A stretch of DNA of 44,433 bases from Jimgerdemannia flammicorona (taxonomy: Eukaryota), in assembly GCA_003990765.1 (NCBI GenBank), contig RBNJ01000067.1:1-44433 (forward strand). The letters run 5' to 3'. Position numbers and translations under genes: made by a program. The notes under the pieces were generated by a model. The model did not search any database. It was not told where the DNA came from and saw only the letters and a program-made list of their open reading frames with translations. Position 1 is the stretch's first letter. The number at the start of each line of letters is the position of its first letter. Of the stretch, positions 1,561 through 41,481 are shown in pieces.

Positions 1561-1960
1561 GTGACCTTATCTTTAATATATATATATTAATACAGTAATA
1601 TAATATTTAATTAAATAATTTATTTAAATTAGAGAACAAAATATATTAATTTAATAATATTATAAATTCAATGGAATTTTCAATTTCTCTATATATAACT
1701 TATAATATATATTACTTATAAAAATTCAATTTATTATTTTTTATTTTATTTTATTTTAAAATTTTATAATCAACTTAAATCTTTTATCTAACTCAGATAT
1801 CTAATATCTAAAATATATTAGATCTGATAAATATTTAATATTTAAACAAAGTTAATTAAAAATATTGTAAAATTATTTATTTGATAACATTATATCAAAA
1901 TTAAAGTTTATATTAAATTAAATATATATAATAATTATATAGTATACTTAGTGTGTGTAT

Positions 1961-2270
1961 TAGTAACTCTTAAACAAATTGAATTAATTCAAATTGAATC
2001 GAATGGGTCATTCAAATCACATCGAATTGGGAATTTTTCAAATTGAATAGAGGTCTGATTTGATTCAAAATTTTATCCTAACTTCAAATGTAATAACTCT
2101 ATTAAAATACATCCAAATTTAATATTCTTTGTTATGTATGCTATATTTGCCATAATAAGGCATATCTAATAAGCTAAAAATCATTAAATTTGGATATGTT
2201 TTGGTCAAGTTATTGAATTTTGAAAAATTAGGTTTGAATCAAACTTCAATTTGATTTGTTCAGAGCACTA
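1961..2270. mobile_element. Non-autonomous hAT-like MITE (310 bp)
   Basis: Termini TAGTAACTCTTAAACAAAT / ATTTGTTCAGAGCACTA form an imperfect TIR. 8-bp TSD gtgtgtat (1953-1960) / gtgtgcat (2271-2278). TAG ends with an 8-bp TSD are typical of hAT. Confidence 0.75.
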
Positions 2271-2462
2271 GTGTGCATGCATTTAAATATATGGCACAGG
2301 TACTCAATAGTACTCAATTTACTCAATATACAGTACCAGGATTTCTGTGATGGAAATAAAAATAGACCAAGAGTACCACAAACGGATGGACGCGCGATAT
2401 CCATATTTCCATCCCATAGCCTAACGACAATAGCTGGGGTTTCCGAAGCATTTTATTACTTG

Positions 2463-2465
2463 GCC

Positions 2466-2515
<50 letters not shown>

Positions 2516-2518
2516 GGC
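2463..2518. repeat. Perfect palindrome GCC-T25-A25-GGC
   Basis: T run 2466-2490 directly followed by A run 2491-2515, flanked by gcc/ggc. Confidence 0.85.
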
Positions 2519-3284
2519 GTTTAGCGGGAAAATGGTACAAACAAGTCGATAGATTCAACACTTAGTAGTATGACTGCAATTCATGCTCATACAGAGAAGG
2601 CATCCCGCGTGTACCCTGAATTGTCCCAGGGAGACCCTTTCACGCCGTATTGGCACGGCTACTTGCACAAAACCCTGGGAAGTAGGAGAGCAGGAGTCCC
2701 CACCGCCTGACGTCGCCGATGTACGAAAAAGAAAACGTCGATTCGAGCGCTTGGGGGGCTGACAGACATACAAAAGCGCGATTTTCAAACAAATCCCCAC
2801 CTGACTTTACTGTGAATCAACAAATCATAAAGTGAGGAAGGTGAGTAAAAGATGAGGACACGCGCGTAGCGACGGGTGAAAGAGTAGACGGAAAAAATAG
2901 AGACCTGACTAAGCAACGGACGACCACAAGACTGGTACAACGAAGTATTACCAATATACACCCCCATGGCACGGGACTTTCGAATCACGTCTGAATCAGC
3001 GTAGCTTGGGGTGCGTAAACAAGATCGAAATGTGTAATGAGAAAGTGGGGCCTTTTATTCAAAGCTTTCTATAGCTTATTTCATACACGGGGATGCGTAG
3101 AATTTTCAAAAGTCAAGAAGACGATATCATAAAGCATGTGGTCGTAGAAATACGGATTGGTGCGTAGGGACGAAATGTCTCATTCTTAATATTTGTTTTC
3201 ATATAAGGCGGGAAATATAGATTTTTTTTTTTTTTTTTTTTTTTTAAGTATAGCGTTAAATCATTCTTCGTCGTGTAACGGATC

Positions 3285-4646
3285 TCATTTTTTTTTTGAA
3301 CGAATAAACCATCGTAACACTCGGCAAATTCCTCTCTTTTGCGTTGATGGACATATGGACATTACCACCGGTTGCCCGCCTTCTCTTTTCCACGTATTGC
3401 CTCTGTGGCGGTGGAACCCATGCCACCTAATCCACATGTTTGTCTTCTCCATCAAATGGCCGGGGATAACCATCTTCTCGAGCTTGGGACAGCTGCCCAC
3501 GGCCCATTCCAGGAACGACTCGTCGAGCCTGTCGCACCTTGCCAGCGACAACGTTCGTAGTTCGGACCATCCAGCGCCAACAGTTACACGGTCGTCCAGA
3601 TTCAAGCATCCTTCTAGGTCGAGGTTTTCGAGTCGCCGATATCGCTTGTGCGAGGCATCAGTCAGTACCAAACCAACCACCCAGCTAATCCGCACCCAAC
3701 TAATCCGCACCAAGCGAAGACTCCGCAGTTCGGTGCAGCGCGTCACGACGGCACACACGTTGCTAATAGTGACGGCGGTGTTGTCCATTGGTCCCAAGTT
3801 GACGAGGGCGAAAGATTGAAGCCGCGGGCACGAGATCGCCAGCGCTTCGATGGTGTGGTCCAACTTCTGTCGGTTGCTGTGCGTGTAATGAAATTGGCGT
3901 AAGTCTGGCCAAGCCGGTAAAACAAAGGCTAAAGCTTCGCCGGTGACATGGACGTCGCTCAAGGACACCTCGCGCATCCGCGAGCACATACGCAGGGCGC
4001 TGTTTGTGCCGAGGGATATGGTGCAATGAGTGAGGCGTAGGGATTCAAGTTGAGGAGACAGGAGGGTAAGAAGTGAGTTCATTTTCGTGTAGTCAGTTGT
4101 GTATCTGTAGCCTTTGAGGTCGAGGCGCTTAATGGGATGCGAGAAGGGTCGAAGGTCGTGGAACACATTGTTGACCTCGTTGAGGGTCATGGAGTACATT
4201 TGATTTGGACGGGCTATGACGATTTTAAGTTCTACAAGGTTGCGCGGTCGCAGGTGGAAGAGTTCCTTGAGGGTGTTGAGCTTTTGATCGAGCCGATAGT
4301 ATTCCAAGGAGGAGACGTCGATCGTCACTTGCTCGATCTGGTCCAGATCATCAAGCTCATTACGACGAGACTCGGCGAGTATGTCGATATAACGTTTCAT
4401 TCCATCGATGTCGAAACGATTGTTGTAAATGACAGTTCGGAACAAGCCGAGTTGGATGCTCTTGTCGAGTAACGGGCGGGCCTCAATGTACCAGCTACGG
4501 CAAACCATCGAACTGGCGAAAAGGTCCCAAGGCGTCTCCGATAAAATGGTGGCATGGGTTGCCGGCAATAGGTGCCGGAGCACCTGGTTTAAAACGTCAG
4601 GGACAAGGCAAGGTTGGCTGTGGTTGCGGTTTACGAGGGCTGCCAT
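3285..4646 (-). CDS. F-box/leucine-rich-repeat (RNI-like) protein, apparently intronless, ~453 aa
   Basis: N-terminal F-box-like motif (LVPDVLNQVLRHL...LFASSMVCRSWY). Cys-containing LRRs: CPRLQSFAL, CTELRSLRL, LENLDLEGC, LRTLSLARC, CPKLEKM. ATG at 4646; CpG-rich. Confidence 0.85.
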   Translation of the reverse strand: MAALVNRNHSQPCLVPDVLNQVLRHLLPATHATILSETPWDLFASSMVCRSWYIEARPLLDKSIQLGLFRTVIYNNRFDIDGMKRYIDILAESRRNELDDLDQIEQVTIDVSSLEYYRLDQKLNTLKELFHLRPRNLVELKIVIARPNQMYSMTLNEVNNVFHDLRPFSHPIKRLDLKGYRYTTDYTKMNSLLTLLSPQLESLRLTHCTISLGTNSALRMCSRMREVSLSDVHVTGEALAFVLPAWPDLRQFHYTHSNRQKLDHTIEALAISCPRLQSFALVNLGPMDNTAVTISNVCAVVTRCTELRSLRLVRISWVRISWVVGLVLTDASHKRYRRLENLDLEGCLNLDDRVTVGAGWSELRTLSLARCDRLDESFLEWAVGSCPKLEKMVIPGHLMEKTNMWIRWHGFHRHRGNTWKREGGQPVVMSICPSTQKRGICRVLRWFIRSKKK

Positions 4647-6591
4647 CAATCGAGGAACGGTGTTGCTGAGCGCAGCCCAAGTCGGCCTTTTGACATCGAT
4701 GAACCGTCACAAAATGTCAACTCCAAAATCGTTTGTACGTTTAGATTAAGTATCTTTTGGTCGATCGGGTAGTCGGTGAATGTTTGCTGACCGGGTTCAA
4801 CCCCACGCGAAGCCAAAACAAACACAGAACCGCTTTAGGAACTCAAATATCAGGTGCAAAGGATGTAATACCGCGAAGCTTGACCAATCCAAAGAATTTG
4901 AGTACGCAGGCCTCAAAATCGATGCGAAAGAATTCACAATGGCCGTAACGACCGATCGATAACTAGCTCTGACGACCGAAGCTGTAATTGTCGGGTTGCG
5001 ATCGATCAGTTTGATTTCAGGGGGGGTGACCCATCCGATTTGAGAAGCTGAAAATAAACTCACCAAATAAGGCATTACAAGAAAAAAGTTACCGCGGACT
5101 GCGTAAACTAAGATTAGAAGGACCAAGATAGCTTATGAAGAGTTCGATAAGATATGCGGCGAGGGTTGAATCTGGCGTCAGCGGAAACTATGAATAGCTC
5201 GGCATAGAACAATCTATTACTTAATTGATTATCATAAATAGCAAGATTTTATAAATTACACCTAATATATTAATACCATATAAAATATAAAATAGGAACT
5301 ATCTAGATTACAACTGAATAGTAATAAAAAATTAGCAGAATTTATTAATCTATAATATAGTTAAAAATATTGTTATAATATTTTTACTATTATTATAATT
5401 TTAATTAAATAAAATAAAAAGCTAATATATTATTAATTATATAAAGTTTTTAAGCTTAGAAATATTTATATATTATGATATACAATATATATATCTTTTT
5501 TACAGAATACACTGCTTAATATACCACTTAGTTATCTTATATGCTATTTATCTTTTTGTCTAACAATGTTCTGGCTTAATGTTCAGTTTAACTGCTGTTT
5601 AATTTATTTATATTTCTCATTTATATCAAGTTGAAGTTTATGTATTATTGATGTTTATATATTATAAGTCATTGGTCACATAACTAGATATTCAGAATGG
5701 TGAAAGGTGAAAGTACATATATTGTGGATTCTGACATACTGATGGTTATCCTGGTGTTCTTTAGTGAAGTTTTCTGGCAAATTGGCAATCTTATATCTTA
5801 AATTCCATGTAGTCTGAGGTCTTATATCTGATTTTCATAGTAGTGGTTCTTAACTGACTGTCTTGTATTCTTTTGTGACAATTTTTATAGTAGTGACAGT
5901 TCATATCTTGAGTTTTATAATGATTTTTATATCAATTTCTAAGGTAGCAAGAGTAATTTCTTAACTCTTAGAAGTAGTGTATTTCTTTGTAAATTTCTTT
6001 TACTTCAAACTATCTGACTGAAGTTTATTCACTCTTGTTTTGAAGATATTTATATATATTTCTACTATATCTTAGTAGCAAGATCTAAATATACTATTGG
6101 TTTACTGGTAGCAGTACATCAGTGGCAAAGACTATACTAATGGGGTAAGATTGGAATACTTTTATTCTACACTACTGATAAAGAATGTTTAAATAATAGA
6201 GAAGACTATTCTATATTTATTCTATACTGCTGGCAAAAAATATTAATCTCTATCTTAAAAGATATAGTACTTTTTATCAGTAGTAAGCAAATTATCTTAC
6301 TGAGTTATAATTTCATTATACTACTCTTTAAAGAGGAGAAGTACTGACCAAGAAGTGAGAAGATAGAATAATGACCAATTATCTTCAATAATATTTTCTA
6401 ACCCTTATATAGCTTGAAGGCAGACTGAAGATTGTTCGATTCTTTGTTGTTCTTTTTCTAAGAATTCATCAGTTTGAACATCTTGAGATACTATGGTAAT
6501 TTTAATAGTAAAGTCTTGGTGTTCTTCTTCTTCTTAGATAGAAGCTTCTGGGACTTCTTAGTTCAGTTCCTATATAACGTAATGTGACATA

Positions 6592-7114
6592 TAGTACTCT
6601 GAATGAGTTAATTCAGATAGGATTTGAATCTCATCCAGATTAACTCAGATAAGATTTGAATCTCATCTAGATAGATTTGAATCAACTATTGTTTTGATTT
6701 CTGAATTTAATGATCTTTATATCATTTGAAAGCTCTTAATAAGGTCTTTCTAATGATACTAAGAATATTAAAATTGAATTACACATTATCAAGATATTAA
6801 GAAAAACATTCTATTTAATGAAATTTCCAAAATTAGTAAATTAAATAATTTCCAAAATTAGCAATTCAGATGGTTTCCTTTATAACTCAGCAACATATGA
6901 TCTAATTTCAATATTCTTAGTATCATTAGATAGGCCCTATTAAGGGCTTTCAAATGACATTAAGATTATCAAATTTGGATAATTATTTATTGAGTTATTG
7001 ATATAAACATTTAATTGTCTAATTTGAAAATCAACATAATAGTTGATTTGAATCCATCCAGATCTGAATTAATTCAAATCCAATTTAGATTAAATTAACT
7101 TGTTAGGAGCACTA
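6592..7114. mobile_element. hAT-like MITE (523 bp) with a long internal inverted repeat
   Basis: TIR TAGTACTCTGAATGAGTTAATT / AATTAACTTGTTAGGAGCACTA. 8-bp TSD gtgacata (6584-6591) / gtgatata (7115-7122). ~6700-6790 is an inverted copy of ~6895-6980. Termini are related to the MITE at 1961-2270. Confidence 0.8.
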
Positions 7115-7483
7115 GTGATATATAACTAATAGAGTAGTGGATGGTCATAGTAGCTTCTATAGATGCTTTGATAGTAATAGATAGTTCTTCAAAGATTTCT
7201 ATAAGACTTATTAGATGGCTTTAATAGTTGTCTTGGAGAGGAGTGGTATAGAAGTCTGGTAGAGTGGATTCAATTTGTTGACTTTCTATAGTAATATGGT
7301 TGCTTCTGATATAATCAATGACTTTAGCTTCCATCTAATTGACTTCTTTAGTAGTGAGATAGACTATGTTTCTAGCAGTAACTCCTTATAAGTAAGCTAT
7401 AGCCTAGAGTATATGGCAGAAGATTTGGTAGATATGAAGGGCTCTCTTGATCAGCCAGTTGATAGTTAATAGTTCAGCAATAA

Positions 7484-10400
7484 ACACTCTCTCATTACCT
7501 TTCTCTGGTAATATTCAGATTATACAAACTTCTGACAATACTCAAGACATTATTTTTGGAGAAAAGATAATAGCAATATAGTAACTGACAAGTATTCTAA
7601 GATATATACTAGGCAGGGCAGCCCTAGTATATTTAACTGGCAATATATGGAGAGAAGTCATAGCTTGGGGGAAAGTATGTAGGACTTACTGGCAGAAGAA
7701 TATAGAAGGGGAGAAGACAGTATTAGGAGATAGGAGACTGGGAGAATAAGTTTTACAGATAAGGTAAAGAAGAGTCATCTGATGACTAGACTAGAGAGCT
7801 GACTGAGGAAGGGTAAGGAGATGGTGAGGACTGTAGAAGCTGATGGAGCAGCCTATGGTGGTGAGAGCAGTAGGGCTGAGAGAGTAGTGACTGGAGAGAG
7901 TGGGACTGCTGATGGTAAGTAAACTGCTAATCTGGAAAAAAATTCAGATATAATGGCTGATGATAGATCTAGACAGAGGGGGGGTATAAGGCTTAGAGAT
8001 CTGGTAGATAGTGTAATGGGCCTGGTAGCAGTACTATTACTCAAAAAATTGAGATCAGAATTTACTATCATATTATATTTCCAAGACTTGGTAGTGATGG
8101 TAAGAATGATTCTGAGACTAAGGTGAAGAGAGCAGTATTGGTGAAATTCTTAAAGAGTCTGAAAGAGGTGAAGGTCAGCTTTGAGAAAGAGGATATACTA
8201 TTGGAAGTAATAGAGAAGAGAGTGGTAGTAGGAGAGGTAGTGATCTCTATGACCCAGTGCTTGCACTGGAATCTCTGAGTAGTACAGCTGATAGTGCTGA
8301 ATATTTCTATAGTATTGAAGGAAATTGCCAAGAGATTAATTGTTGAGGTCATCAAGGAGTATAGAGAAATTATAGATATTGAGTTTTGGGTCTGGGAGGA
8401 CACCAAATTCAGGACTAACAATGTAGATATCAGAGTGTAGCTGGTGGGCAAGAAGAATATAGGAAAGATAAGGAACTGGCCAGTGGTCCTCAAATGGAGA
8501 TCTGTGGAGTACAAGTTCTTGAGAGTGAAAGGGATACTAGAGAAAGAAAAGAACTTGCTAAAGGTATTAGAGGATCTAGCTAGAGCTATAAAGAGGAGAA
8601 AATTAGCATAGAAGGAGTTTGAGGTCAGAATAGTTGTAGAGATCATAAATGGCAAGAAGGTGTAACTGGACTGAGCAGCCTGGGAGAGAGTATAGAAGAG
8701 GTACATTCAGAAGAATCTATTGGCTAAGTTGGGAGAAGGGGCAGCTAGGGGAACTACCACTGATGAGGCTAGATCAAGAGTGAGTATCTGAGTAGAAGAG
8801 AAGAAAGCAGTACCAGAGGAAATCTCAGGTGGGGGGGAAGACATAGGACTGAGTATTATGGTGGAGGATGCAGAGATGATAGAGGGGGAGAGGAGTACTA
8901 GGTGAGGCTGAAGGATATGATAAATTGCAGGATATACTAGAAGTAGATTGAGATGAGTTAATAAGGAGAAATATAGAGAGTAGACAGGTAGAAGGAGAGA
9001 AGAGAGTGATCTAATGAGTGGTAGAGGCTGAGGTTGAGGAGAAATGGCTATAGAAAACACTTGAGAATATGGTAGCTGAGGAGCTAGAGAAAGGACTTCT
9101 AGATACTGAGTGAGAGATACTGAAGTAAAATTCTACAGAGTGAGGAGGTGCTAAGAAAACTCTGTGATGAGATAATAGTAGCAATACTGAAGATTAAGAC
9201 ATATCAGATAGATGATGATAGAGAGATGATACTTCTGATGATTACAAATAACAGAGCTATATATATATAGAGCTCAAAGAAAGGGCTGGCTAAGTGGCAG
9301 GTAGTGTGTGAGGAGTACTGAACAGAGATAGAGGCTGTGGATAGTATAGATTATTAGGAGATCTTGGAGGCACTAGAGACTCAGTAGAGAGAGATAGATG
9401 AACTAGAGGTAGAGAGGAATCTTGATGTTACTGGTGATATAGCAAGTATGGAATTATAGAGTAGATAGCTATTCTTTAAATAACATTATTTAATATAAAC
9501 AATATAACTAGAATATCATCTTTGAATATCAATGGGCTATGGGGAGCAGTGAGGTGTCAAAATATCTTTGGATAGCTGAAGGGAATGGAAGCTGATCTGT
9601 TCCTACTATAGGATAGTGAGTGTGATAGAGACTTAGATATTCTGAACTAGATAAAGGAATGGGGTGGTGTGGCTATTTGGCAAGGATGTGTGGGCATTTT
9701 GGTTAGGAAGGGTAAGAGGGATATTAGAGATATTGGATACTAGAGGAGTAGAGTAGAGTGGGGAGTTTGGAAGAGACCAGGCTAGAGATTCTTGATAGTA
9801 GAGTCTTATTATTATCCAGCAGAGAGAGGGGAGAGAGTGGAATGGATTCAAGGGCTACAAGAGTCTGGAGCATTGGTGGAGGCAAGAATTGATTGTCTAG
9901 AAGGAGACTTTAATATAGTATATAATAAAAAGATAGACAGAACTAATGGGGAAAGAGAGATAGCCAGTAAGAGTAGTAATATGGAAGCCTGGAAGGAAGT
10001 CAAACATCTGAGCTCTCTAGTGGATATAGAGAGGATTGGATGGAGAGATTGTAGAGTTTTTATCTATTAGATGGCAGGACTGGACTCAAGAATTGACTGA
10101 ATATTGACTGCTGATTGCTGGAGAGTTGATATCTAGAGAACTTTGGAAACTATTTAGTATCTGTAGTCAGATCACTGGGGTCTTCTAGGAGAGGGGTATT
10201 TTGGGAAAAGTAAAGAGGGACCTGGACATTGGCAACTGAATACCTCTTTACTAGAGGAGGCCTCTCTATGGGAGGTATGGGTGGTAGATATTAGCTCTAG
10301 GGTTTTTGGTTAGCAAGCAGAGAGGCTGAGAATTGGGGATTACTAGATAAGATTGAAATCTGAGATATAATAGTACTGGGGAGAGGCAGGAAGGATATAG

Positions 10401-13248
10401 AGTGCTCAGAGAAAGAAGCAAGTAAAGTAGATCTCTCAGAGATTGGCAGGGTTATTAGTGATTTGGACAGATCTACTGAAGAATAGTAAGAAAGGAAATT
10501 GGTAAATATAATAAATCAGACTAGAGGTAGAGAAGCTGAAGGATATATTAAGACAAGAGAAGGATCTATAGATTAAGAGCATAGTAGCCTAATTATAGTA
10601 GTAGAGATTGGAGGAGGGAGAATAGTCTACTAAGTTTTATCACAGCTTCTACAGATAAAGAGGATATGGCAGCAGTGAGAGAGAGTTTTGAATGAGGCTA
10701 GGGTGTTGGTTGTTAGGATATCAGAGATTCTGGATCAGTTGAGCAGATAGTGGAGACATCTGTAGAGCAAGGAGGATAGAGGGGTAGGGGTACTGAATAT
10801 TGACAGACACTTGGAGAAATAGTACTCTGATCTGGCAGTAGGCTTAGGTGATCTTGGTACTGCTGTTTAAGAGGAAGAGATTCAGCAGGTTCTGATGATA
10901 ACAAGCTCCAGAATAGTACTAGAAGAGGATGACTTATAGTGGAATTTTTGAAAGAAGATGGCAAGAGTTGAGTTAATTCTAAAGAAAATAATGGCAATGT
11001 GTGATTAAGTGATAGACTTAGGGGCATAGATTGGGAGGCAGAGCTTAGGTCTTATAGCTCTGCTGTTTAAGAATAAGAGGAGAAGAGAGGAGTGGAAGAA
11101 CTGGAGACTGATCATGTTTCTGAATATAGATTGCAAACTGATCATAAAGATCCTAGTGGTTAGGCTGTAAAGAGTGGCTCAACAGGTTCTGGGGGCTGGG
11201 CAGAGAGGATTCATAAGGAGATATCTGATTAGAGACAGGACAGTCTGGATGTATGGTATTATTAAGAGAGCTCATACTACTGAGGTAAATAGAAGGCTAG
11301 TTTTCTTAGACCAAGAGAAGGCCTATGATAGAGTCTGGCAAGTGTGGTTGAAAGGGGTGCTAAAGTACATTGGGGTCTCCCCTGGGATCCAGCAGGCCTT
11401 GGTTGGTCTGCTGGAAGGAAGTTGGGCAGCAATTATAGTGAATAGACACAGAGGAGTTTCATTCTCTCTGAGCAGAGGAGTGCTGCAGAGGGATCTACTG
11501 TTCCTGATTCTGTATACACTGTCTCTAGAGTCTTTTTTGGATAGAATATGATATAAGGTGAGAGGATTAGATATTCTAGAGGTTAATTGGAAGGTGGGAG
11601 CCTTCACTAACAATATGGTAGTTGAGCTGGAGTCAGTTGAGAATATTACAATACTGAAAGGTATAGTAGAGTGATATGAGGGATACTCAGATACTAAGCT
11701 CAACTGGTATAAGTGTGAGACTTTGGTGTTGGGAGGAGAGATAGTAGGTAGGGATGTCATTGGAACAATTGTCTCTGTGAGAGAGGCTGTATACTATCTG
11801 GAAATCTACTTTTTAGTATATAGTTCTTTGCTGCTGTATAAGTGGTGGGAGCAGCAGTTGGTGGAGTGGGGAAGTACTCTCTTGGAGTAGAGTGGTTGCT
11901 ATATATATATCTCTGATGGGAAGAGTGATAGTGTTAAATATTTACTGATTGCCTAAGCTATGGTATTTAGAGTACTATCTGAACTTTCTGACATAAATGA
12001 TCAAGCAATTGTTGAAGATAGTCAGGACCTGAATATAGGTAGGATAATAGAGTCAGATTGGTTAAGAGGTATTGATCTGGCCAATGAACTGGAGAGGCCT
12101 GGGTCTGGTGGATTTTCTCAAGTATCTTCACTGCTTAAAAGTATGATAACTGAAGCAAGTAAGCAAGTTGAGGGATAGAGAGTGGGTTCCCCTCATACAG
12201 AGGATGTGGAAAGCCCAGTTCTCCCCCCAGGGTACAACTGGGGATCTTTTATCTCTGGTGGTATTGGAGGAGAGTCAGAGGATGCATTATAAGGTATTCT
12301 GATAAGGAGTGGCTAATAGGGCACACTATATTGATCTCTGATATCAGGATATTGAGAGAGAGAAGTAATAGAGACCCCAGATATAGAGGTAGAACTACCT
12401 TCTGTTAGGTAGGGTACCAGTGGATAACTTCTGCTTAGAGGATAGCATAGAGTGTCTTTGAAAATACAGAAGAGATCTGTGGCCTGAGATATGGTAGGGG
12501 GTAGGAATTAGAGAGGTGTGGAACTGAAACAGTATTTGGCTGTAGGGTAAGCAGGTGGCAAGATGGATTCCCCCTAAGTTCTGGATAGTATAGTGGAGAT
12601 TTCTATAGTGTAATGTTATGTTGAACTACCAGATAGATTATTTGGTAAAAGGAGACATCCAGGAGTATAAGGAGTATCTGAATATCAGATAGGAGAAAAA
12701 AGTAATACAGACTCATGAATATTGATTAGGAGAGTGTAAGGTGATAGGTGACTTTTGGAGAGAGATTGAGATATGGCTGAGATGACACCCACCAGAGTTA
12801 GTGGTAGGAGAGAGATGGGGTGACCTCTGGAGGAGATTGGTGGAAGGATTGGGAGATGAGTGGTTGATATTAAGATGGGTACTAGTGATTTGAGTTGGGC
12901 TTACAGGACATTGGCTACATATATGTATTTGAGGAGGATTGATAGTTGACTTTGGGGGTAAGAATAGCTAGATAAGAGTGGCTGATGATGAATATGTTGA
13001 CTGAGTGGTGGAGGAGTAGAGGTACTGGTGGGAGATACATATCAGAGATAATTAGTAGAGATAATCTGTAGGAAGAGTGGGGGGAGAATTGGAGTGACTA
13101 GGGGGTTGGCAGTGTTTTGAGAGAATGATGAAAAGAAGAGAGAGATTCTGAGTGAGGTTGAGTAAGGGGGTTCATTTGTATTAGTATATTATAGACAGTT
13201 TGGTAATAAAGTAGAAGTTCTTATAACTATAAAAAAAAAAAAAAAAAA
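7484..13248 (+). mobile_element. Full-length decayed L1/Tx1-like LINE, copy B
   Basis: ORF1 remnant from ~7578, then ORF2. AATAAA at 13205 and poly(A) at 13231-13248. 18-bp TSD ttaatagttcagcaataa (7466-7483) / ttaatagtttagtaatga (13249-13266). Confidence 0.93.
9495..13150 (+). pseudogene. LINE ORF2: APE endonuclease, reverse transcriptase and C-terminal CCHC remnant
   Basis: APE motifs SLNINGL, DLFLL*D, GDFN, SRID, SDH and the L1/Tx1-type GPGHWQLNTSLL. RT motifs NWRLI..LNIDCK, QRGF, DQEKAYDRV, GVLQRDLLF (<-GVPQGDPLS) and AFTNN (<-AFADD). Many stop codons. Confidence 0.9.
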
Positions 13249-14049
13249 TTAATAGTTTAGTAATGAGATCTTCCTGGTCATATTCTTGGGTTTCATTATA
13301 GAGATAGTATTCAATCTCATAGTTATATCAGAGAGTCATTTGATAAGTAGTGTTCTTGAGCTGCTATATCATTATATAGTAATAGTTAATAAAATGTTCA
13401 AGGTCTTTGATATAGAAGTTCAGATTCTCAGTGGTATCAGGGCACCAGGTAGCCATTTTGATAGCTTTGAGGATAAGACTCTTTAGACTCAGTAAAGGAA
13501 TACTGTGGCAGAAGGTCTGGTTAGAGCAGTAGAAAAGAGATATTATATTCTTATTTGTTCTAATTCTTTTTAACACACTGGGTCTAGGTTCTTTAAATAA
13601 TATAGCCTTCATTTTAGCTCAGATTATTATTATTCCTTTTAGTTAGATCATCAGACAGTATCATCTAATTATTATGTCATAAGGTTGGGGTTAACATCTG
13701 ATTAAGGTAATTATGAGATTTATCATCATTGTTCCTTATTTCAGTATTATCAGTTATATACATCACATCTGCTTCTTACAAAATTAGAGCTATTCTTAGT
13801 AGTGATAGTTATATAGGATTGAGTGGTCTTAACTCTAGAGATGAGCAGAATGTTAGTATATTTGCAAGAACTAGCCATCCTTATCTAGGGTGAGAGCTCT
13901 CATTGTTATGGCTGGGGATTTGAACCTCTTAAAAATAATATTCTCTATAATCTGAGACAATTTTTAGTAGCAACATCTATCATATAGATGAGCTTGAGAA
14001 TGATTCCAATGATATTAACTTCTTGAGTTCCAGATAAAGTATCTATTAT

Positions 14050-15300
14050 CCTCTGATAGAGGTGATACAGATGAAGTTCAAATGTGTTTTACTTCTCTTT
14101 AGTAGTAGAGTATTATGTAGTTGCAGTGTATCTTGGTCTTGAGTAAAAGTCCATCCATGATCTTGAGCTAGTAGGTGTAATTTATGAATACTTAATGTAT
14201 AAGATAAGGTCCTTTCTATTTTAGTTCAAGTTTGGTACTCCAGTTTCCTTTAATGATGGTATAGTATACCAATACTTATTGTTCAATAAGCAGGAGTTTA
14301 AGGTTGGCTTTGTAGTCATAGTACTTCTTTTGTCATTCTTGTGCTTTGATAATAAATCCTCATACTTGCTAGTATACTTCATGTAATTAGGTGATCTCTT
14401 CAGTGACTCATTTTGTCAAATTTAGCTAGATTGGTTCAGTGGGGTCCTATACTTCTTAGCCATATATTAGATAGAAAGGAGTTTATCAAGTAGTAGTTAT
14501 TTTTGAAGTTTGAATACTGAATAAGATTACTGGAAAATATATAGATACCCTAGTTAAGTTAATCTCAGGTTCTACTGAGACCTTACTTAATGGTCTGGTT
14601 TATTCACTCAGTAAGTCTATTTATCTGAGAGTAGTAGGCTATTGTTAGCTATAGCTTGATCTTGAAGTTGCTTGCAAAGGTTTTTATAGCTTTATTGATA
14701 AATTCCCAGCCTTAGTCTGTGATGATTTTCTTAAGAATACTATAATGGCTGAAAATTTCATTATACAGAATTTCAATAATTATCTGAACATTGGCAGTCT
14801 CAATGGCAAAGGCTTCAGGCCATTTTGTCAAGTGATCTTCAATAGTAAGAATATAGTATCTTTCTTAACTGATTACTGGGAGAGACCTAATAATATCTAT
14901 TCCTAGTCTTTGAAAGGCTCAAGCTAGTACTGTGATCAGTATTAGAGATACTTTATTACTTAGCTTTTATTGATAGCTTTGGCAGATATTATATTGTTGA
15001 ATGTATGTTAAAATTTGTTTTTTCATTTTAGGCTATCAGTATTACTTTTTAATTCTTACAATAGTGATTCCAATTTCTTGATATATATTCTGGCCATAGT
15101 TTGTTATCAGGATTTTAAGTATTTCTTTTTTTCTTGAGATGCAGATATACTGATCTCCTTTTACTCTCCAAAGTTTGTCATTGCCTTTCTGAATTTTTTT
15201 AAAGTTTCTTTGAATAAATAGCTTGTGGGCTGGCTGAATTTCTTTCTTAAAACTCCTATGGTACAGACTCCAGATGAGGGTGAGACATAATTCTTGGTTC
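14050..15300 (-). pseudogene. Ty3/Gypsy integrase (rve core plus GPY/F tail)
   Basis: FQRLGIDII..LP...YILTIEDHLTKWPEAFAI...IITD*GWEF at ~14700-14920; KGPYLIH at ~14200. No chromodomain seen. Confidence 0.9.
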
Positions 15301-20935: not shown

Positions 20936-20939
20936 CCAT

Positions 20940-21324: not shown

Positions 21325-21332
<8 letters not shown>

Positions 21333-31900: not shown

Positions 31901-33253
31901 AATCATCATGTATATACAGGCGCTAATTTTATGAACGAAGCACACGTGCTTGATCAAACAAAATCGGCGCTAGCAAGTCAAACAGGAAAAAAACATAAAT
32001 CGGCCAAAGGGCAGCCCCAAAATGTTAAGGTACAAGGGGGAACACGCGATACCAAAGAAGTGTTGGTGAATACACGGATTGATACCTTCTCGGAATAATG
32101 CCACAACGCGTTTACTTGTTATCAACGTTTGTATGGCCCCTGATGCAATTGGCATGACCGCCGATCCTAACCACTTTGTACAGGGGTTAGGCGCGCCCCG
32201 CGCGCCCAACGTCGTTCTTGTTGCACTGTCGTTGAAGGTGATGATCTGGGCGTGTGAATGGGGAGATCGACTGCGCTCTACGTCATTTTGTGACGACGGC
32301 TGGATCGTAAGGTTTTTTACGAATCCCTCAGTGCTCGCCGTTGCTTCTGAAATGGACAGGCGATCTCCATTTTCAGTCATGTCCCCCCATTTTTCGAACC
32401 CTCGCAACTGGGGGATATCTAACGTTCCATTTATTGCTTGAGAATTCTCTCGTTTATCAATCAAGACACTTCCACGATTCTCTTGTACTCTCTGAGGCTC
32501 TCTTTAGGCGAGAATACTTGGCGAGTGCCACAAAATATTTCGTGGCGTTGGTTACTCGAAGAGTTGCCAAGAATTCGCTGGAAAGAACTTTCCGTACTAT
32601 ATTCATGATTAGGTTGGATTATAATATTCTACATTATTTATTTTCGTTACAATTCTCTTGGCCTCACTTGACGTCTTGAACATTCAAGATTAAACCCGTG
32701 CGTCAATTGGATCTTGTATCATCCTCGGAGAACATATGTAACTTTGAAATTGAAATATATATTTTATCCAAGGTCGTTTTAAATTCTAATATAATCGATA
32801 TATGGAGATCATTTGGTATTCTACTACATTTTGTTGCTTTTGAGGAAACAAGAATGTGAGACGCGCAGGGCAATTAGGTACCATAATTTCATGGCAATTG
32901 TGTATTGTAATTTTTAATCGTGGACAGGCTCCTCGAAGTTTAGCGGCACGATAAGCTTGTAAATTGGTCGTTCAACAACCGATGCCCGTCCCAAAAATAA
33001 AATAAAAATAAAATACGCTTATCTCAATTTGCAGCTCGGGGTTCACAGAGGGAGTGTTGGCATCACGTGAAGAGTTTTTACACCCGCGACTTTTCCAACG
33101 TGGCTCAGCTGACTCACGAATCACCTGTGTTGCTGATACCCTTCTTCTATCGCCTCTTCATTCACGCATTAACTTTTGTAATTCACTACTGTTCTCTCGA
33201 CTACATAACCTGGGTTGTCTGTATGGTCGTTATGTGGCTTATTCTTTCTTTTT

Positions 33254-33421
33254 CCAAGCTACACGTCCGCCCGGCCAAGCTACACGTCCGCCCATCCAAG
33301 CTACACGTCCGCCCATCCAAGCTATACGTCCGCCCATCCAAGCTATACGTCCGCCCATCCAAGCTACACGTCCGCCCATCCAAGCTACACGTCCGCCTAT
33401 CCAAGCTACACGTCTGCCCAT
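33254..33421. repeat. Minisatellite, 8 x 21 bp (CCAAGCTACACGTCCGCCCAT)
   Basis: Eight head-to-tail units with no spacers; this explains the overlapping repetitive ORFs in several frames. Confidence 0.97.
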
Positions 33422-35361
33422 CCATCCCACCCACTCCGTGTCCCACCTCGCCCTCATCCCTCTCCTTCGTGATGCTGGACCGCCACCATTCCACCTGGAT
33501 CGTCTCCCGTCTGCAATGTCTCAAGCAGCATCGGGTTCGTGTGCAATAGAGAATTTGGGAGACAGGATGGAAGAGGTCCGTGGCGAGGACCTTTGACGTT
33601 GCGGGTGAGGGATTGGTTGTTTGGAGCGAGCAAGTGTAGGCGCGATGAATTGTTATTGTTTGGGCCTCACCATTAGTACAGTACTAATTTGTCACGACAT
33701 CGCCATCTGCCTATTGATAACAACCATTCCCTCTCAGAAAGTTCGCATGTGCTTCGACCGAACGAAACCCACCTATTATTCGTGGAATATGTCCAAAGAG
33801 GCGGGGCTCCGACATCAAGAACTTTAGGAGGTAGGGGGATGTGTCTGTGATTCGCAATGGCAAGAGTGCCATATGCCAGCTGGTTTAAGGTGAGTATAGC
33901 GGTTTGGCGATCGTCAGGGACGTGTGTTATGAGATAAAACGGGAGGAGTTGGCAAAAACCTGACCGGAGATGCAGAACTTGGCCTGGGTGGCTGATCGTT
34001 CGCAAAAGAAGTGTATCGCGGCCTGTCAAAAGGTCTCTGTCGTGCCTGGCGGGATGCTCAGTGTGGAGTTTCATATATTCCATATCGTTATGCTCGTCCC
34101 ACTCTCTTTGATCACCAACGTATATTTACAATGTACTGCCCACAATAAACATCCGATTGTTTTCAACCTGCAAGAGATTTCTCTCAAGTTCACGAGGCAA
34201 GGGTTAGGGCGTGTATATAAAGGTATCAGCTCTATCTCAATATATAACGTTATAGGTATACGGAATTTGTATAAATGTTATTCTAGACGTTTCTGGAATT
34301 GAATATCTTACTATACTTAAATAAAAAGGTGATTCTGAGGCAATTATTGATTGCGGCGAGTTTGGTACATGGAGGAAGGGGTTGCAACATACACAGCTAA
34401 ACTTCAAATTTTCCTAAAGCATATTAACTCGTGGCTGAATACATTTCTGTGTTGCTCCTCTCAAATTCTCCAGAAAGCAACTGTAATAATAATAATAATT
34501 ACTGAAGATAGGTGTGTGCATTGATATAAAAGACTCACTATATCCGGGTACTGAAAACTGGGGATGCGGCTGGATATGCAATTGATTTTATTTTATTTTA
34601 TTTTATTTTTTGCTGGGATCAAGGAGTTCTAATTTGTTATTGATATTGGCCATCTCATTACTCTGACCTAGTAATATATATTTGGAAGTATACTACTCAG
34701 CCACTATTTATATTTACATATATTTTTTATAATATTCATGTGATTTTATCATTTCACTGAACAAACTCACTTTAAACAACCTCAAGGTTTGGGTCAGAGC
34801 CTGATATTATAGTCCATGAGATTACCAATATTAATAATCCAACTTTCATATTACTTTTAGTAGATTTTAATTTTGACTTATATTGAAGGTTTAGACCCAT
34901 CTCTATAGAAGTAATCTGGACCTATTCAGTCAAGGTCATGTTCTGCTTCAGAGGTTTGGCTAAGGTACATGTCCTCTTGTTACTAATGATATTATCTAAG
35001 AATGAGCAGAAATGAGTAAATATATATAGATAGTAATCTTGATTCTATCATTCAACTATATATAATATTTACAAAGTTCTAACATATCAAAAAAATTCAG
35101 CTCAGTTAAAGTAGTGTTCTGCTTCAGATATTTAATTAGAGCATATATCTTTATTAATTACTATCTCCAAAAACTAGTTAATATTTGAATAAGAGTAGTG
35201 AAAATCAATATAACTATTATAGACAAAAATACAAATAACAATCTGATAATAATAATAATAATAATAATAATTCTTTTAGTATAAATATATATTTGTTCTC
35301 ATATATATCTTTTTTACTTACAATCATAAAAAAAATTATAGGTTGATATAAGATATATATT

Positions 35362-37336: not shown

Positions 37337-37540
37337 CCCCAGCTGCCTGAGCACCTTCAATCACCTCATAGACTCAGGCAGTTCCATCTCAGATTAACTG
37401 ATCACTTACAAATCCCCTCTGCTCTATTCTCAGTACCTCCCCAGCTGCCTGAGCACCTTCAATCACCTCATAGACTCAGGCAGTTCCATCTCAGATTAAC
37501 TGATCACTTACAAATCTCCTCTGCTCCATTCTCAGTACCT
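37337..37540. repeat. 102-bp tandem duplication inside the RT region of LINE C
   Basis: 37337-37438 and 37439-37540 differ at two C/T positions; the region is single-copy in LINE B. Confidence 0.93.
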
Positions 37541-40232
37541 GCTGGGCAATCCCCTACAGCTTAGTTACCAAGATCTTCATCACCATCTTGTGGTCCATGT
37601 CAAGGAGTATGATCAGTTGCTAGTTCTTCCAGTCTTCTCTTCTTCTCTTATCCTTATAGAGCAAAGAGACCAGCCCTAGGCACTGGTCTCCAATCCAAGT
37701 TCTCAAATAAAGTACCTTATCACACATTACTACCATCTCTTTCAGTACCACCTCCATCCCCACCATCTTCTTTTAAAAATCTCAGGATAGCCCATTCTCC
37801 CCAGGAGCTGTCCCTTTACTTATTAAAGCTAAGACCTTGCACACCTCCTCCTCCTGCACTGGGTCTCCCAGTAACCCCAGACCCAGTACTGGGTCTAGAT
37901 ACCAATTCTCCAGCTATTGTTCAATGTTCAGCACATCCTTACCCCCCACTTCATCACTCCATAAGTTCCTCCAGTAAGTCCTCAGCAATCTCAAAATCAT
38001 TGGAGTTCCTGCCACCATCTCCCCATTCTCATCCAAAATACCATCCCACTGCTGCCTGGTTTTCTGAGCTTAGAGTATCTGTGATAAAAATCTAGTGGGC
38101 CTCTCCCCCTCCTCTAACCTCTGCCACCTCAACCTTGCCACCATCCTCTTCAGCTTAACCTCTTTCTCCATTTGTAGCACTCTCTTAGCTCATCAACTTT
38201 CTTTTGTATCTACACAATTCACCACTCAGCTACCCCCCCATCCTCCAGCGACCCTGCTCACCTCTCCAGAAGTGTCACCAGTCTCTGTGAAGCCCATTGC
38301 ACTCACTGCTACCTCTGAGTACTCCTTTCTTTCCCTGCCTCTCTTCAGTACTACTAAGTACTTGATTTCAGCCATCACCAGCAATCCCTAATCTCTAGTC
38401 CCTGCCCCCACCACCTACCAATCTTCTCAACAACTTCTATCTTCTAGTCTATTCACAATAAACCATCCTCTAATAAAGAAGTATTCAGTCACCAATGTCC
38501 AGGTCCATCCCCACTTCTCCCAAATCTCTCACTCTCTATCAGCCTCTAGTGATCTGACCATGGGCATCAGACCACCTCTAGTATATCCTAGACATTTACT
38601 CTCCAGCACTCTGCCATCAATATCCAGTCAATTCTGGAGCTCAGCCCTACTACCCAGTGAGTATAAATTCAGCACTCCCTCCAAAACTGTCACCCCATAT
38701 CAACTAAGGAGCTCAACCTCTCAATCTCTATCCAATCTTCCAACCTACCACTTCTGTCCCCCCTTTCTTTCCCACCATCAGTCCTGTCTATCCCACTATC
38801 ACATACTATGTTGAAATCATCTTCCAGATAATCAACCCCTGCCTTACCCAAAACACCAGCCTCTTTCAAGCCTCTGATCTAATCAATGTGTTCTCCCCTC
38901 TCAGCTGGGCAATAATATGACTTAACTGTCAAGGAGTTCCATTCAAGCCTCCTCCATACTCCCCACACTAGTCTACTCTCCCAATGTCCAATATTCTCAA
39001 TGTCTCCTATCCTCTTTCAAATCAAAATACCCACCTGATCAGTGTACACTGCTGCCCCACCTCATTCTCTAGTCCAGTTCTATAAATCCACATCTATTTC
39101 ATACCATATATCCTGTAGTAAGAAAAGATCTGCATCCAGTCCCCTCAACCAGCCAAAGATATTCCTTCACCATACTGTGTCCCTCAATCCATTTATATTC
39201 AAAGAAAAGATTCTAGTTGTACTATTCATATTGAATAATGTTTGATATTAAGAGCCCAGTCTAGTACTCTATGCTCATCTCATCATCAGTCAGCTCCAAG
39301 CACTGCTCTGTCTCCAACTTATCCTCTACTACAGCCTGAGCATCCAGTGCTTCCAATATTTCCTAACACTCCACCCCATCCACAACCTCTATTTCTACCC
39401 AATAATCTATACATACCAATCTCCACTTCTCCAAACTCTTCCTTGAATCCACAAGTATGCCACCTATTCATTTACAATTCCTCAAAGGGCCTCCTCTCTC
39501 TGATCATTAACTTGATACTCCTCCAACTCTAAGAGCACTGCTAGGATCTCATTTCTAATCTTTTTTAGCACCTCCTCACTATAAAGAATTTCCTCCCAGT
39601 ACCTATCACTTAGAATCTGAAAGTTCTCTCCCCCCAGCTCCTCAGCTGCCACCCCCTCCAGAGTCTTCCATAGCCACTTCTCTTCATCCACCACCTCAGC
39701 AACACTCTGGATAATTCTTTCAACCCCCACCACAGGGTCTACCAAAGTGCTCCTCCTCTCTGACTCATCCCACTCCTCCTCCAGCATGTTCAGAAGTTCT
39801 TTCTCACCACTTGCCCCTATATGAGACATCATACTGAGGGCATACTTTCTCTCCCATTTCTGCATCCTCCACTATACTACCCCATCTCTCCTCACTTGAT
39901 CTATCTTATGTCACACCCTGAGCTGGCCTGTGCTCTCCAGCCCAGGTACTCTCTCTCAATTCAGCACTACCTTCACCTACCCCACTACCTACCACACCCT
40001 CTCCTAATTTCTCCAACAGCTCCTTCTGGATTCACCTCCCCTGTGCCTTCTCCTCTTATCTATCCTGATCCTCTTTCCATCCACAATCTCCACCACTATT
40101 CTGGCTTCATACTTCTTCCAAGTCAATCTCCTCTTTCTGCCAGATCTTTAAGAGCTTTCAGCAAGTCCTCCTCTTCCTCTGGCATTCCTTTCACTCACAA
40201 GACCTTACATTCAACTTATCTCCACTTAAGAG

Positions 40233-40240
40233 TTACTGGC

Positions 40241-40298
<58 letters not shown>

Positions 40299-40309
40299 TA
40301 CTGGCCAGT
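40233..40309 (-). mobile_element. Pure poly(A) insertion with TSD inside ORF1 of LINE C
   Basis: ~50 T flanked by ttactggccagt (40233-40244 and 40298-40309). Copy A has the empty site (gtcgccggccagtccc, ~546-561). Confidence 0.85.
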
Positions 40310-41481
40310 CCCTTGTCTTCTCCATATTCTCTCTTCTAGCCAGCCTCACCCTAACATTGATGTCTCTAGTTCAGAGTTCAGTACCCTCTCAGACTCTGAA
40401 CCCAATGTCTATAATCTCTCTATATTTCTTGACCACCTCTACAATCAACTCTCTGATCCTCTCTCTTGACATTGTAGAAAGGTCCAATACTGTCAACTGC
40501 ACCACCTGGGGGTCATAGTGCATACACCTGGCCATAGGGACCACTACTCCACCCACTACTACTCTCTTCTCTACAGTCTCCAATATTGATGCCTCTCTCT
40601 CAAATCTAACCTCAACCCCTTCTTTCCTCTTCAAGAACTTCACTAAAGCTGCTCCCTTCACCTCCTATGCCACCAGCCCCAGAATCATTCTTATAATTAC
40701 TGCCAAGTCTCAGAAGTACAATGTGACAGCATATTCTGACCTCAACTTTTTGAGTAATAGTGCCAATACTATGCTCATCATACCATCTGCCAGATCCCTA
40801 GACCTCATACTCTCTCTCTACTCCAATTCATCAATAACCATCATATCTGGATTTTTTCCAGATCCCTAGTTATAGTACTATCAGCAGTCATACCCCCAGC
40901 CTCTATGCTCCCCCTCCCTACTATCTGACCCTTCTATGGGAGCCTCTCTCTATCTTCTAGCTGAAGCTATTGATACCTTCCCTAGTCTCAGCCAACTATC
41001 TAGACCAGATACCATCTTCTCCATCTTGACCTTGTCAACAAAGATCATCCTCCCCCCTCCTTGTTGCCTCATTCTGCCCCTCCCTCCACCACTAACACCA
41101 TGGCCCACTATAGAGGGCTTTGGTATCTCCAAACTATCTCCTTGCCTTCTCCCAACCTACTGCCAACCAAAGGCACTACTACCCCCCTAGCTGACATACT
41201 CACCAGTATGCTTATTGCTGTCCATGTTGATAGTCTCCTTTTACCAAAAACATTTTGGAAAGTATTGTCTGAGTCTTGTGTCACCTGAATATTACTGGTA
41301 AAAGATGGATATATATTATTATTATTTATAAATAATAATAAATATATAATATATAAGTATGTAAACAAATACCACTAAATAGAGATAATCTAGAATAGAC
41401 CAGTTTTGCTAACTCATCAGTTGTTGGTCTAAAGCAACCAAGACTGGGCAGCACAGTGCATTTACATCAGCATCTCACACT

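What the first reader, a model, noticed from the sequence alone, without database searches (positions are those of the whole stretch)
1953..41323. RIP-like CpA->TpA hypermutation of repeats, on top of CpG loss
Seen: all six mismatches in four TSD pairs are CpA/TpG versus TpA (gtgtgCat/gtgtgTat; gtgaCata/gtgaTata; three in the LINE B TSD; atatG/atatA). Both start codons of LINE B are ATG->ATA (7578, 9495). Invariant residues decay Cys->Tyr, His->Tyr, Gln->stop and Trp->stop. CpG decay is also clear: the same ORF1 codon is TGA in copy A and CAA in copy C, implying ancestral CGA. Known: CpA-directed RIP is a Pezizomycotina hallmark, and CpG-type decay occurs in Basidiomycota. Inference: if the host is non-Dikarya, this points to an under-described RIP-like defence or heavy non-CpG methylation.
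Basis: partly seen in the sequence, partly recalled or inferred. Interest (0 to 1): 0.72.

Follow-up and report, generated by a model that had tools for sequence, protein, structure and literature searches.

The report
Transposon C-to-T decay in Endogonales fungus
In the early-diverging root fungus Jimgerdemannia, old transposons have lost almost every CG and many cytosines before A or C (few before T) while neighbouring genes are untouched, which looks like slow damage from targeted DNA methylation and not like the CpA-specific repeat-mutation system (RIP) of moulds.

Summary
The decay is real, but it is not CpA-specific RIP. The host is Jimgerdemannia flammicorona (Endogonales, Mucoromycota). 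Repeat blocks have CpG o/e 0-0.015, gene blocks 1.1-1.2. Across 90 LINE copies in three families the order is CpG >> CpA >= CpC >> CpT. Old family B: CpG 99.8% gone, CpA 36%, CpC 32%, CpT 10%, T>C 0.9%. Young family: CpG 16%, CpA 1.5%, CpC 1.4%, CpT 0.7%. CpA exceeds CpC only 1.2-1.4-fold. Hits show no strand coordination or clustering, composite RIP indices are negative, and thousands of near-identical repeat candidates persist. A 2.8-kb tandem array inside an LRR gene is spared, while a similar LRR piece beside a LINE has decayed. The genome holds three DIM-2-like methyltransferases; general profiles found no RID. Best reading: gradual deamination of DIM-2-type methylation in heterochromatin; an enzyme-driven mutator is not excluded. 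No methylation data were available. I found no published description for Endogonales. This scan noted the same pattern on other pieces of this genome.

The parts
1..1560 (-). LINE copy A, young family, 5' part (ORF1 ATG at 1477; premature TGA at 1394-1396 from CGA). Partly decayed: 30 of 62 CpG sites hit, CpG o/e 0.34
1953..2278 (.). MITE1 (1961-2270) with 8-bp TSD GTGTGTAT/GTGTGCAT, one CpA mismatch
2500..5150 (.). Gene block spared by the decay (CpG o/e 1.20); holds the LRR/F-box-like ORF 3288-4634 (-), 99% identical to a J. flammicorona protein
5200..23850 (.). Nested block of dead repeats, 8 CpG in 18.6 kb (o/e 0.015), GC 34%
6584..7122 (.). MITE2 (6592-7114, long inverted arms) with 8-bp TSD GTGACATA/GTGATATA; related copies on other contigs at 74-84%
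7466..13266 (+). LINE copy B with poly(A) tail and 16-18 bp TSD (2-3 CpA/TpG mismatches); 0 CpG; ORF starts ATA at 7578 and 9495
13300..21100 (-). Dead Ty3/gypsy-order pol (protease, dUTPase, RT, RNase H, integrase), many stops; described only
   Evidence: Pfam, stops read as X
23950..34500 (.). Gene and intergenic block spared by the decay (661 CpG, o/e 1.11, GC 48%)
34929..35127 (-). Decayed remnant of a host LRR exon-intron unit beside LINE C: all 10 CpG lost, CpA 15/34, CpC 5/17, CpT 4/26, T>C 2/93 against an intact unit in L162
35352..41323 (-). LINE copy C with a perfect 16-bp TSD; 1 CpG in 5.9 kb
37337..37540 (.). 102-bp tandem duplication inside LINE C; two mismatches, one CpC and one CpA
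40233..40311 (.). Poly-T insert in LINE C with a 14-bp TSD whose single mismatch is in CpC context

Best explanation
Transposons and the DNA next to them are packed into heterochromatin and methylated by DIM-2-like C5 methyltransferases, densely at CpG, more lightly at CpA and CpC, least at CpT. The methylated cytosines turn into thymine site by site on both strands over long times. CpG goes first, then CpA and CpC, so every class of repeat drifts to AT-rich, stop-ridden DNA while gene islands keep their CpG. Shown here: the spectrum, its confinement to repeat blocks, its graded build-up with copy age, the lack of strand coordination, and three DIM-2-like genes. Inferred: that these sites are methylated, that these enzymes do it, that H3K9me/HP1 guides them (from Neurospora), and that deamination is spontaneous.
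For: Same rank order in three LINE families and in pairs of other repeats at every age class: CpA/CpC 1.2-1.4, CpA/CpT 2-4.5. A four-rate clock reproduces the share of CpG sites that ended as TpA without any extra term (0.32 vs 0.30 in B, 0.178 vs 0.178 in C). Strand choice is binomial per copy (young chi2 29.0, df 29; old 23.6, df 29). Adjacent hits fall on the same strand 294 of 569 times against 289 +/- 10 by chance, and residual correlation is under 0.007 beyond 5 bp. Young copies are lightly and fairly evenly hit (11-31 CpG hits per 1.15 kb, mean 20, variance 27). The CpG-rich LRR tandem array in a gene has an ordinary spectrum (intron CpA 18/332, CpC 3/95, CpT 6/135, T>C 19/728), while an LRR piece beside LINE C has decayed. 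Three BAH-type C5 methyltransferase loci with PCQ and ENV motifs group with ascomycete DIM-2-like proteins; the best solved structure is Neurospora DIM-2. DIM-2 methylates CG and non-CG (PMC11315935, passages). Phycomyces, with DNMT1 and Dim-2, has CG 2.2%, CHG 0.3%, CHH 0.5% (PMC7862722, table passage), a ratio of the same order.
Against: No methylation was measured. The excess is very large for passive deamination: CpA is 25-46 times, CpG at least 200-300 times the transversion rate of the same copies, against about 3 and 8 times in the control intron. Within families the C>T load does not rise with private background changes (Spearman -0.44 in B, -0.21 in C); the copies were picked by likeness to the window copy, which biases this downward, so the clock is not shown. 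Across age classes CpA per transversion climbs from 13 to 44, which an offset or an accelerating process would both give. Load differs among copies beyond chance (chi2 150 and 170, df 29). No CpG-specific DNMT1 or DNMT5 was identified to explain the CpG dominance, and a review gives Neurospora DIM-2 a CpT preference (PMC13297926, table passage), the least hit context here. The spared-repeat control is one locus at 84% identity.
Confidence: 0.58

Rival explanations
1. An active, RID-independent mutator: one or more of the three DIM-2-like enzymes (or a partner deaminase) converts cytosine to thymine in heterochromatin during vegetative growth, a few sites at a time, with its own context rule CpG > CpA >= CpC > CpT.
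For: Size of the excess over background. Reproducible flanking rules that look enzymatic: 5' T lowers CpA (TCA 0.23 vs 0.38-0.43) and CpG (TCG 0.08 vs 0.16-0.22); a pyrimidine at +2 raises CpA and CpC (CAT 0.51, CCT 0.38 vs CAG 0.27, CCA 0.23). Precedent: Dim2 of Zymoseptoria tritici raises mitotic C>T more than tenfold (PMC8016269, section 11). UNG (two loci) and a TDG/MUG-like fragment are present, so simple loss of repair genes does not explain it.
Against: In Z. tritici over 98% of these mutations are at CA and CG is spared (PMC8016269, section 11), the opposite of here. Flanking rules can equally come from methyltransferase preference followed by passive decay. A slowly dividing symbiont would also show a high ratio of time-driven to replication-driven change (inference).
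Confidence: 0.22
2. True RIP: homology-triggered, premeiotic C>T mutation of duplicated DNA, weak in each cycle and averaged over many cycles.
For: C>T confined to repeat blocks of all classes seen (LINE, MITE, Ty3-like). DIM-2 can mediate RIP without RID and spreads into single-copy flanks (10.1101/115501, passages). Many weak rounds would erase strand bias in old copies.
Against: DIM-2-mediated RIP has a very strong CpA preference (10.1101/115501, passage); here CpG leads 7-12-fold and CpC nearly equals CpA. No strand coordination even in lightly hit young copies. Composite index negative in all window elements. 6,239 candidate places for the young family, the best 40 at 95-96% identity. A 15-unit, 2.8-kb direct array at 84% identity is spared. 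No RID-like locus among the methyltransferase matches.
Confidence: 0.12
3. A genome-wide C>T mutation bias or repair defect; genes keep CpG only through selection.
For: Repeats are neutral and old; the control intron also shows CpG about 5 times T>C.
Against: 10.5 kb of largely non-coding DNA at 23.95-34.5 kb keeps GC 48% and CpG o/e 1.1. CpG returns within a few hundred bases of block edges. 500-bp windows are bimodal: 232 of 400 under 0.15, 64 at 0.8 or more. UNG and TDG-like sequences are present.
Confidence: 0.04
4. AID/APOBEC-type editing of retroelement cDNA at the time of transposition.
For: G>A is somewhat commoner than C>T at CpG on the sense strand of young copies (360/1853 vs 248/1852).
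Against: Both strands are hit about equally in old copies, load grows with age, MITEs, TSDs and a host LRR remnant decay too, and 5' T is disfavoured (TpC preference of APOBEC is recalled, not tested).
Confidence: 0.02

Closest known systems
Dim2-dependent TE methylation and mitotic C>T mutation in Zymoseptoria tritici (PMC8016269; abstract and section 11 read)
   Same: DIM-2-type enzyme present, C>T confined to repeats, no need for a sexual stage or for strand-coordinated bursts.
   Different: There over 98% of C>T is at CA and CG is spared; here CpG is the fastest context and CpC nearly equals CpA. There it is shown by experiment, here inferred.
RIP of Neurospora crassa and other Pezizomycotina, RID-dependent and DIM-2-dependent branches (10.1101/115501, passages; PMC12543289, abstract, passages, section 9)
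   Same: C>T on both strands, repeats and their flanks turned AT-rich, TpA enriched, ORFs filled with stops.
   Different: No strong CpA preference, no CpA depletion (substrate index 1.14-1.39), no strand coordination, near-identical repeats abundant, no RID found.
CpG-signature TE decay in Basidiomycota and in Tuber melanosporum (PMC4352252; abstract and section 8 read)
   Same: CpG is the predominant target; Tuber has CpG first and CpA second, with a Dim2 gene.
   Different: The basidiomycetes listed have only a CpG signature and a Masc2-type enzyme; Tuber also has RID/Masc1. Here a strong CpA and CpC component comes with no RID found. That survey's table lists only Dikarya.
5mC on repeats in Phycomyces blakesleeanus, Mucoromycota (PMC7862722 and PMC13297926, passages)
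   Same: Same phylum, DIM-2/DNMT1-class enzymes (P0004, P0005 are the closest named relatives), CG well above CHG and CHH.
   Different: Methylation measured, mutational decay of repeats not described in the passages read; three paralogues here.
RIP-index signal in Entomophthorales (PMC11105155, passages)
   Same: A report of RIP-like signal outside Dikarya, with duplicated methyltransferases that the authors say cannot be read as RID homologues.
   Different: Based on composite dinucleotide indices only; here the index is mostly negative and the spectrum is resolved by context.

Membership tests
RIP (Pezizomycotina type) | C:G>T:A transitions confined to repeated DNA | tested here: met
   C>T 19-29% of ancestral C against 0.1-1% for every other change; gene blocks spared
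RIP (Pezizomycotina type) | Strong CpA preference over the other contexts | tested here: not met
   CpG 7-12 times CpA; CpA/CpC 1.16 (1.06-1.27) to 1.4
RIP (Pezizomycotina type) | Positive composite index, depleted CpA/TpG substrate | tested here: not met
   Composite -0.04, -0.12, -0.46; substrate 1.14-1.39; positive in 25% of 158 CpG-free windows sampled elsewhere
RIP (Pezizomycotina type) | Many mutations per round, scored by strand (strand clustering partly recalled; per-strand scoring seen in 10.1101/115501) | tested here: not met
   No per-copy strand bias, no runs, no distance correlation; very weak rounds cannot be excluded
RIP (Pezizomycotina type) | Triggered by homology alone, any duplicated sequence | tested here: inconclusive
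   One 2.8-kb tandem LRR array at 84% identity is spared; one locus only, partly coding
RIP (Pezizomycotina type) | RID/Masc1 methyltransferase | tested here: inconclusive
   All matches to PF00145 and TIGR00675 are DIM-2-like or DNMT2-like; no RID query was available, the search goes exon by exon and the assembly is fragmented
RIP (Pezizomycotina type) | Acts in the premeiotic stage | not testable with these tools
   Needs crosses or parent-progeny sequencing
DIM-2-type methylation-linked decay | DIM-2-class enzyme (RFTS/DUF7893, BAH, C5 methyltransferase with catalytic PC) | tested here: met
   C8187, C11271, C3657; Pfam, PDB 9BAQ/9BAP 136 bits vs DNMT1 92, quick tree. No Masc2 row was in the tree and a basidiomycete DNMT1-RFD cluster scores 0.96 in the Atlas, so the subclass is not closed
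DIM-2-type methylation-linked decay | 5mC on repeats in CG and non-CG contexts | not testable with these tools
   No methylation-aware data could be reached
DIM-2-type methylation-linked decay | Targeting by H3K9me3/HP1 heterochromatin | not tested
   DIM-5 and HP1 genes were not searched; positional decay of an LRR remnant is indirect
Z. tritici Dim2 mitotic mutator | C>T almost only at CA, CG spared | tested here: not met
   CpG is the fastest context in all families
Basidiomycete CpG-only signature | Excess limited to CpG (TpCpG preference recalled) | tested here: not met
   CpA and CpC about 20-45 times background; TCG is the least hit CpG (0.08 vs 0.16-0.22)

The most novel reading that the evidence does not exclude
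Endogonales have their own transposon-erasing mutator outside Dikarya: triplicated DIM-2-like enzymes, without RID, that drive C>T in heterochromatin hundreds of times above background with a signature not reported before (CpG >> CpA >= CpC >> CpT, 5' T disfavoured, +2 pyrimidine favoured). It would show that DIM-2-based mutagenesis is older than RID-based RIP or arose twice.
Probability: 0.25. Interest if true: 0.8.

Novelty: new variant of a known kind. Interest (0 to 1): 0.5.

Why it matters
A kingdom-wide survey concluded that RIP-like signatures are limited to ascomycetes (PMC12543289), and early-diverging fungi are described as 6mA-dominated (PMC13297926). This Mucoromycota symbiont shows one of the most complete repeat-confined CpG erasures one could see, plus a large CpA/CpC component that standard RIP indices miss because CpG decay refills CpA/TpG. 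It predicts an unmeasured methylome and gives a testable signature for DIM-2 paralogues. It bears on whether mutagenic genome defence began as a by-product of DIM-2 methylation. It also means that TE ages and RIP calls in such genomes need context-aware models.

Tried and rejected
Sequencing runs for polymorphism or methylation: none was listed, so no reads were laid. A search for close duplicates of the 23.9-34.5 kb gene block gave only 66-75% paralogue pieces, too far apart to test homology triggering. An LTR pair for the Ty3-like element was not found, so no LTR dating and no placement of the fourth TSD. The first synonymous/non-synonymous count used a wrong frame and was redone. Load against private background within families gave a negative correlation that is confounded by how copies were picked: inconclusive. 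The careful tree did not finish; the quick tree is reported. The genome sample covers 20 stretches of large contigs only; mid-sized and small contigs were not sampled. Rejected: CpG-only decay (CpA and CpC stay high at trinucleotides confirmed by the young family, 20.3% and 17.6%, and do not depend on distance to a CpG); hidden CpG as the source of TpA (four-rate fit); loss of UNG or TDG genes; APOBEC-type cDNA editing; sequencing or assembly artefact (both strands, context rules repeated in independent families).
Full report
Host. The LRR/F-box-like ORF at 3288-4634 has one relative among 6,516 candidates, a Jimgerdemannia flammicorona protein at 99% identity. A methyltransferase exon gave two more J. 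flammicorona proteins. The species belongs to Endogonales, Mucoromycota, so the host is not in Dikarya. The window is contig C67 of G000.

Composition. CpG o/e is 0.015 in the 5.2-23.8 kb block (8 CpG), 0 in LINE B and 0.004 in LINE C, against 1.20, 1.11 and 1.20 in the three gene blocks. CpG returns within a few hundred bases of the block edges. In 20 stretches of 10 kb from large contigs, 232 of 400 windows have o/e under 0.15 and 64 have 0.8 or more; small contigs were not sampled. RIP indices are not those of RIP: product 0.93-1.10, substrate 1.14-1.39, composite -0.04 to -0.46.

Five of the six TSD mismatches are at the stated places and are CpA/TpG vs TpA; the fourth pair I could not place. 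ATG>ATA at 9495 and the CGA codon are confirmed from other copies. The examples are biased, though. The three verified TSDs hold no CpC. A further TSD in the interval has a CpC mismatch, the LINE C TSD is perfect, and a 102-bp duplication has one CpC and one CpA mismatch. Pro and Gly codons decay as much as His, Cys and Trp.

Spectrum from copies. I took the best-matching copies of three LINE families: 30 loci each, from 41, 44 and 78 matches; only 40 candidates of 6,239, 8,890 and 11,569 were scored. Each set includes the window copy. Young family A, about 95% identical: C>T at CpG 608/3705, CpA 69/4585, CpC 104/7496, CpT 31/4680; T>C 65/13953. The T>C and transversion changes there are mostly synonymous (omega-like 0.30-0.38), so they largely predate insertion. 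Old family B: ancestral CpG now TG 1040, CA 990, TA 855 and 0.2% CG; CpA 4132/11446, CpC 4226/13229 with the 3' C intact, CpT 1034/10782; T>C 0.9%, T>A 0.9%, C>A 0.7%. Family C: CpA 22.2%, CpC 20.3%, CpT 11.4%; at the 1,523 columns whose trinucleotide agrees with the young family, 20.3, 17.6 and 9.0%. Ancestral states were set by a 10% rule that caps T>C; transversions give the same background. CpA/CpC hazard is 1.16 (1.06-1.27) and CpA/CpT 4.5 (3.7-5.4) by site bootstrap in B. A four-rate simulation gives CpG 3.1, CpA 0.46, CpC 0.33, CpT 0.11 for B and 2.2, 0.26, 0.20, 0.13 for C, and reproduces the TpA share at old CpG sites. Flanks matter: 5' T lowers CpA and CpG, a pyrimidine at +2 raises CpA and CpC, and there is no CHG excess.

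Other repeats. From 1,358 alignments, 164 pairs of at least 350 bp with at most 2.5% transversions were kept; this filter raises the transition share, but not the order of contexts. The 84 pairs outside the window's three LINE copies give CpA 0.11, 0.19, 0.32, CpC 0.09, 0.14, 0.24 and CpT 0.04, 0.06, 0.10 in rising age classes, with CpG survival falling from 0.25 to 0.05; their CpG/CpA ratio is 4-6, lower than in the families. The 13.3-21.1 kb element is a Ty3/gypsy-order pol, and two MITEs carry the same marks, so the process is not tied to one class.

Burst or clock. Strand choice at CpG is binomial per copy (young chi2 29.0, old 23.6, df 29 each). Adjacent hits share a strand 294 of 569 times against 289 +/- 10. 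Residual correlation between non-CpG hits is 0.04/0.025 at 2-5 bp, under 0.007 at 6-20 bp and nil beyond, alike for same and opposite strands. This argues against RIP rounds. Against a simple clock: within families the load does not rise with private background (Spearman -0.44 and -0.21, biased by copy selection), it is overdispersed, and CpA per transversion climbs from 13 to 44 with age class.

Targeting. A 15-unit, 182-bp, 84%-identical tandem array in an LRR gene (L162) keeps its CpG and shows an ordinary spectrum: 248 transitions to 151 transversions; in the intron part CpA 18/332, CpC 3/95, CpG 17/123, CpT 6/135, T>C 19/728. A similar LRR unit at window 34929-35127, next to LINE C, has lost all 10 CpG and 15 of 34 CpA. 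Position or chromatin state, more than being repeated, seems to set the target. This rests on one pair of loci.

Enzymes. PF00145 gave 4 matches of 8 candidates and TIGR00675 6 of 6. They fall on three loci with long N-terminal regions (C8187, C11271, C3657) and three DNMT2-like pieces (C58, C2181, C1744; class assigned by eye from recalled motifs). The C8187 protein has weak RFD, DUF7893, BAH and methylase domains. Its best solved relative is 9BAQ/9BAP at 136 bits against 92 for DNMT1; these entries are Neurospora DIM-2 (PMC11315935, passage). All three have PCQ and ENV motifs. In a quick tree of 17 rows they group with Phycomyces, Basidiobolus, Gigaspora and Trichoderma proteins apart from a DNMT1-like and a plant chromo-type row (SH-aLRT 99); C3657 is partial and long-branched, and no Masc2 or RID row was present. 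Atlas neighbours are first ascomycete DUF7893 clusters, then a basidiomycete DNMT1-RFD cluster at almost the same score. Searches with P0003 and P0005 found no fourth locus. RID and DNMT5 were not searched with their own queries. UNG is present at two loci and a TDG/MUG-like fragment at one.

Mechanism. Most likely these enzymes methylate heterochromatic repeats, CG most and CA/CC less, and the marks deaminate over time (0.58). The excess is large: CpA 25-46 times and CpG at least 200-300 times the transversion rate, against about 3 and 8 times in the control intron. An enzyme-driven mutator as in Z. tritici therefore stays open (0.22), though its CA-only signature differs. True RIP is less likely (0.12).

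Literature. Nine searches listed no paper on repeat mutation spectra in Endogonales; most subscription papers, which may include the original genome report, are not in the library. PMC12543289 (abstract, passages, section 9) finds RIP-like k-mer signatures only in ascomycetes and uses only scaffolds over 50 kb; in a fragmented assembly like G000 only some 30 contigs reach that length (inferred). Its supplement file 1 lists J. flammicorona, Endogone and Bifiguratus; files 13-19 were not searched and may hold its scores for them. PMC8016269 (abstract, section 11), PMC4352252 (abstract, section 8), and passages of PMC7862722, PMC13297926, PMC11315935, PMC11105155 and 10.1101/115501 are used as cited. 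The TpCpG preference of basidiomycetes and the TpC preference of APOBEC are recalled.

Earlier notes. One search, made after my reading was set, listed eight notes on other pieces of this genome with the same pattern; one gave the lead to 10.1101/115501. They are not counted as evidence.

Verdict. A real, strong, repeat-confined C>T decay with a CpG >> CpA >= CpC >> CpT signature in a Mucoromycota fungus with three DIM-2-like genes. It works like methylation-linked transposon decay and fails the tested features of RIP. New variant of a known kind; interest 0.5.

Noticed in passing
window 13300-21100 (-): The dead Ty3/gypsy-order pol carries a dUTPase domain between protease and RT (PF00692, E 2.7e-18), unusual for such elements and curious in a host with heavy C>T decay.
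   Followed up: no
G000:C8187, C11271, C3657 (L077, L150, L078): Three divergent DIM-2-like methyltransferase paralogues (about 30-50% identity in shared pieces); Phycomyces is listed with one Dim-2 and one DNMT1.
   Followed up: partly
G000:C5369 and C1630: Two uracil-DNA glycosylase (ung) loci.
   Followed up: no
L162:5800-9700 (G000:C150): Gene with ankyrin-like repeats followed by about 16 one-exon LRR units of 182 bp (exon plus intron) in tandem; an NLR-like or exon-shuffling array.
   Followed up: partly
window 33253-33424: Eight copies of a 21-bp unit in the gene block, CpG retained, differing by a few C/T changes.
   Followed up: no
window 40247-40297: A pure poly-T run with a 14-bp TSD inside LINE C: an extremely 5'-truncated retroposition event. 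Similar long poly(A/T) runs lie at 21328-21405 and 41485-41523.
   Followed up: partly
young LINE family, L001-L030: G>A outnumbers C>T at CpG on the sense strand (360/1853 vs 248/1852); old families show no such bias. A few sites shared by descent may cause it.
   Followed up: no
window 2467-2516: A run of 24 T directly followed by about 26 A, a perfect homopolymer hairpin in the gene block; may be an assembly feature.
   Followed up: no
L156:3-3210 (G000:C27): A 3.2-kb inverted repeat whose arms differ by 443 transitions and 43 transversions, same context order.
   Followed up: no
gene blocks, window 2500-5150, 23950-34500, 41700-44350: CpG o/e is above 1 (1.1-1.2) and TpA/ApT low (0.68-0.75), the mirror image of the repeat blocks.
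   Followed up: no
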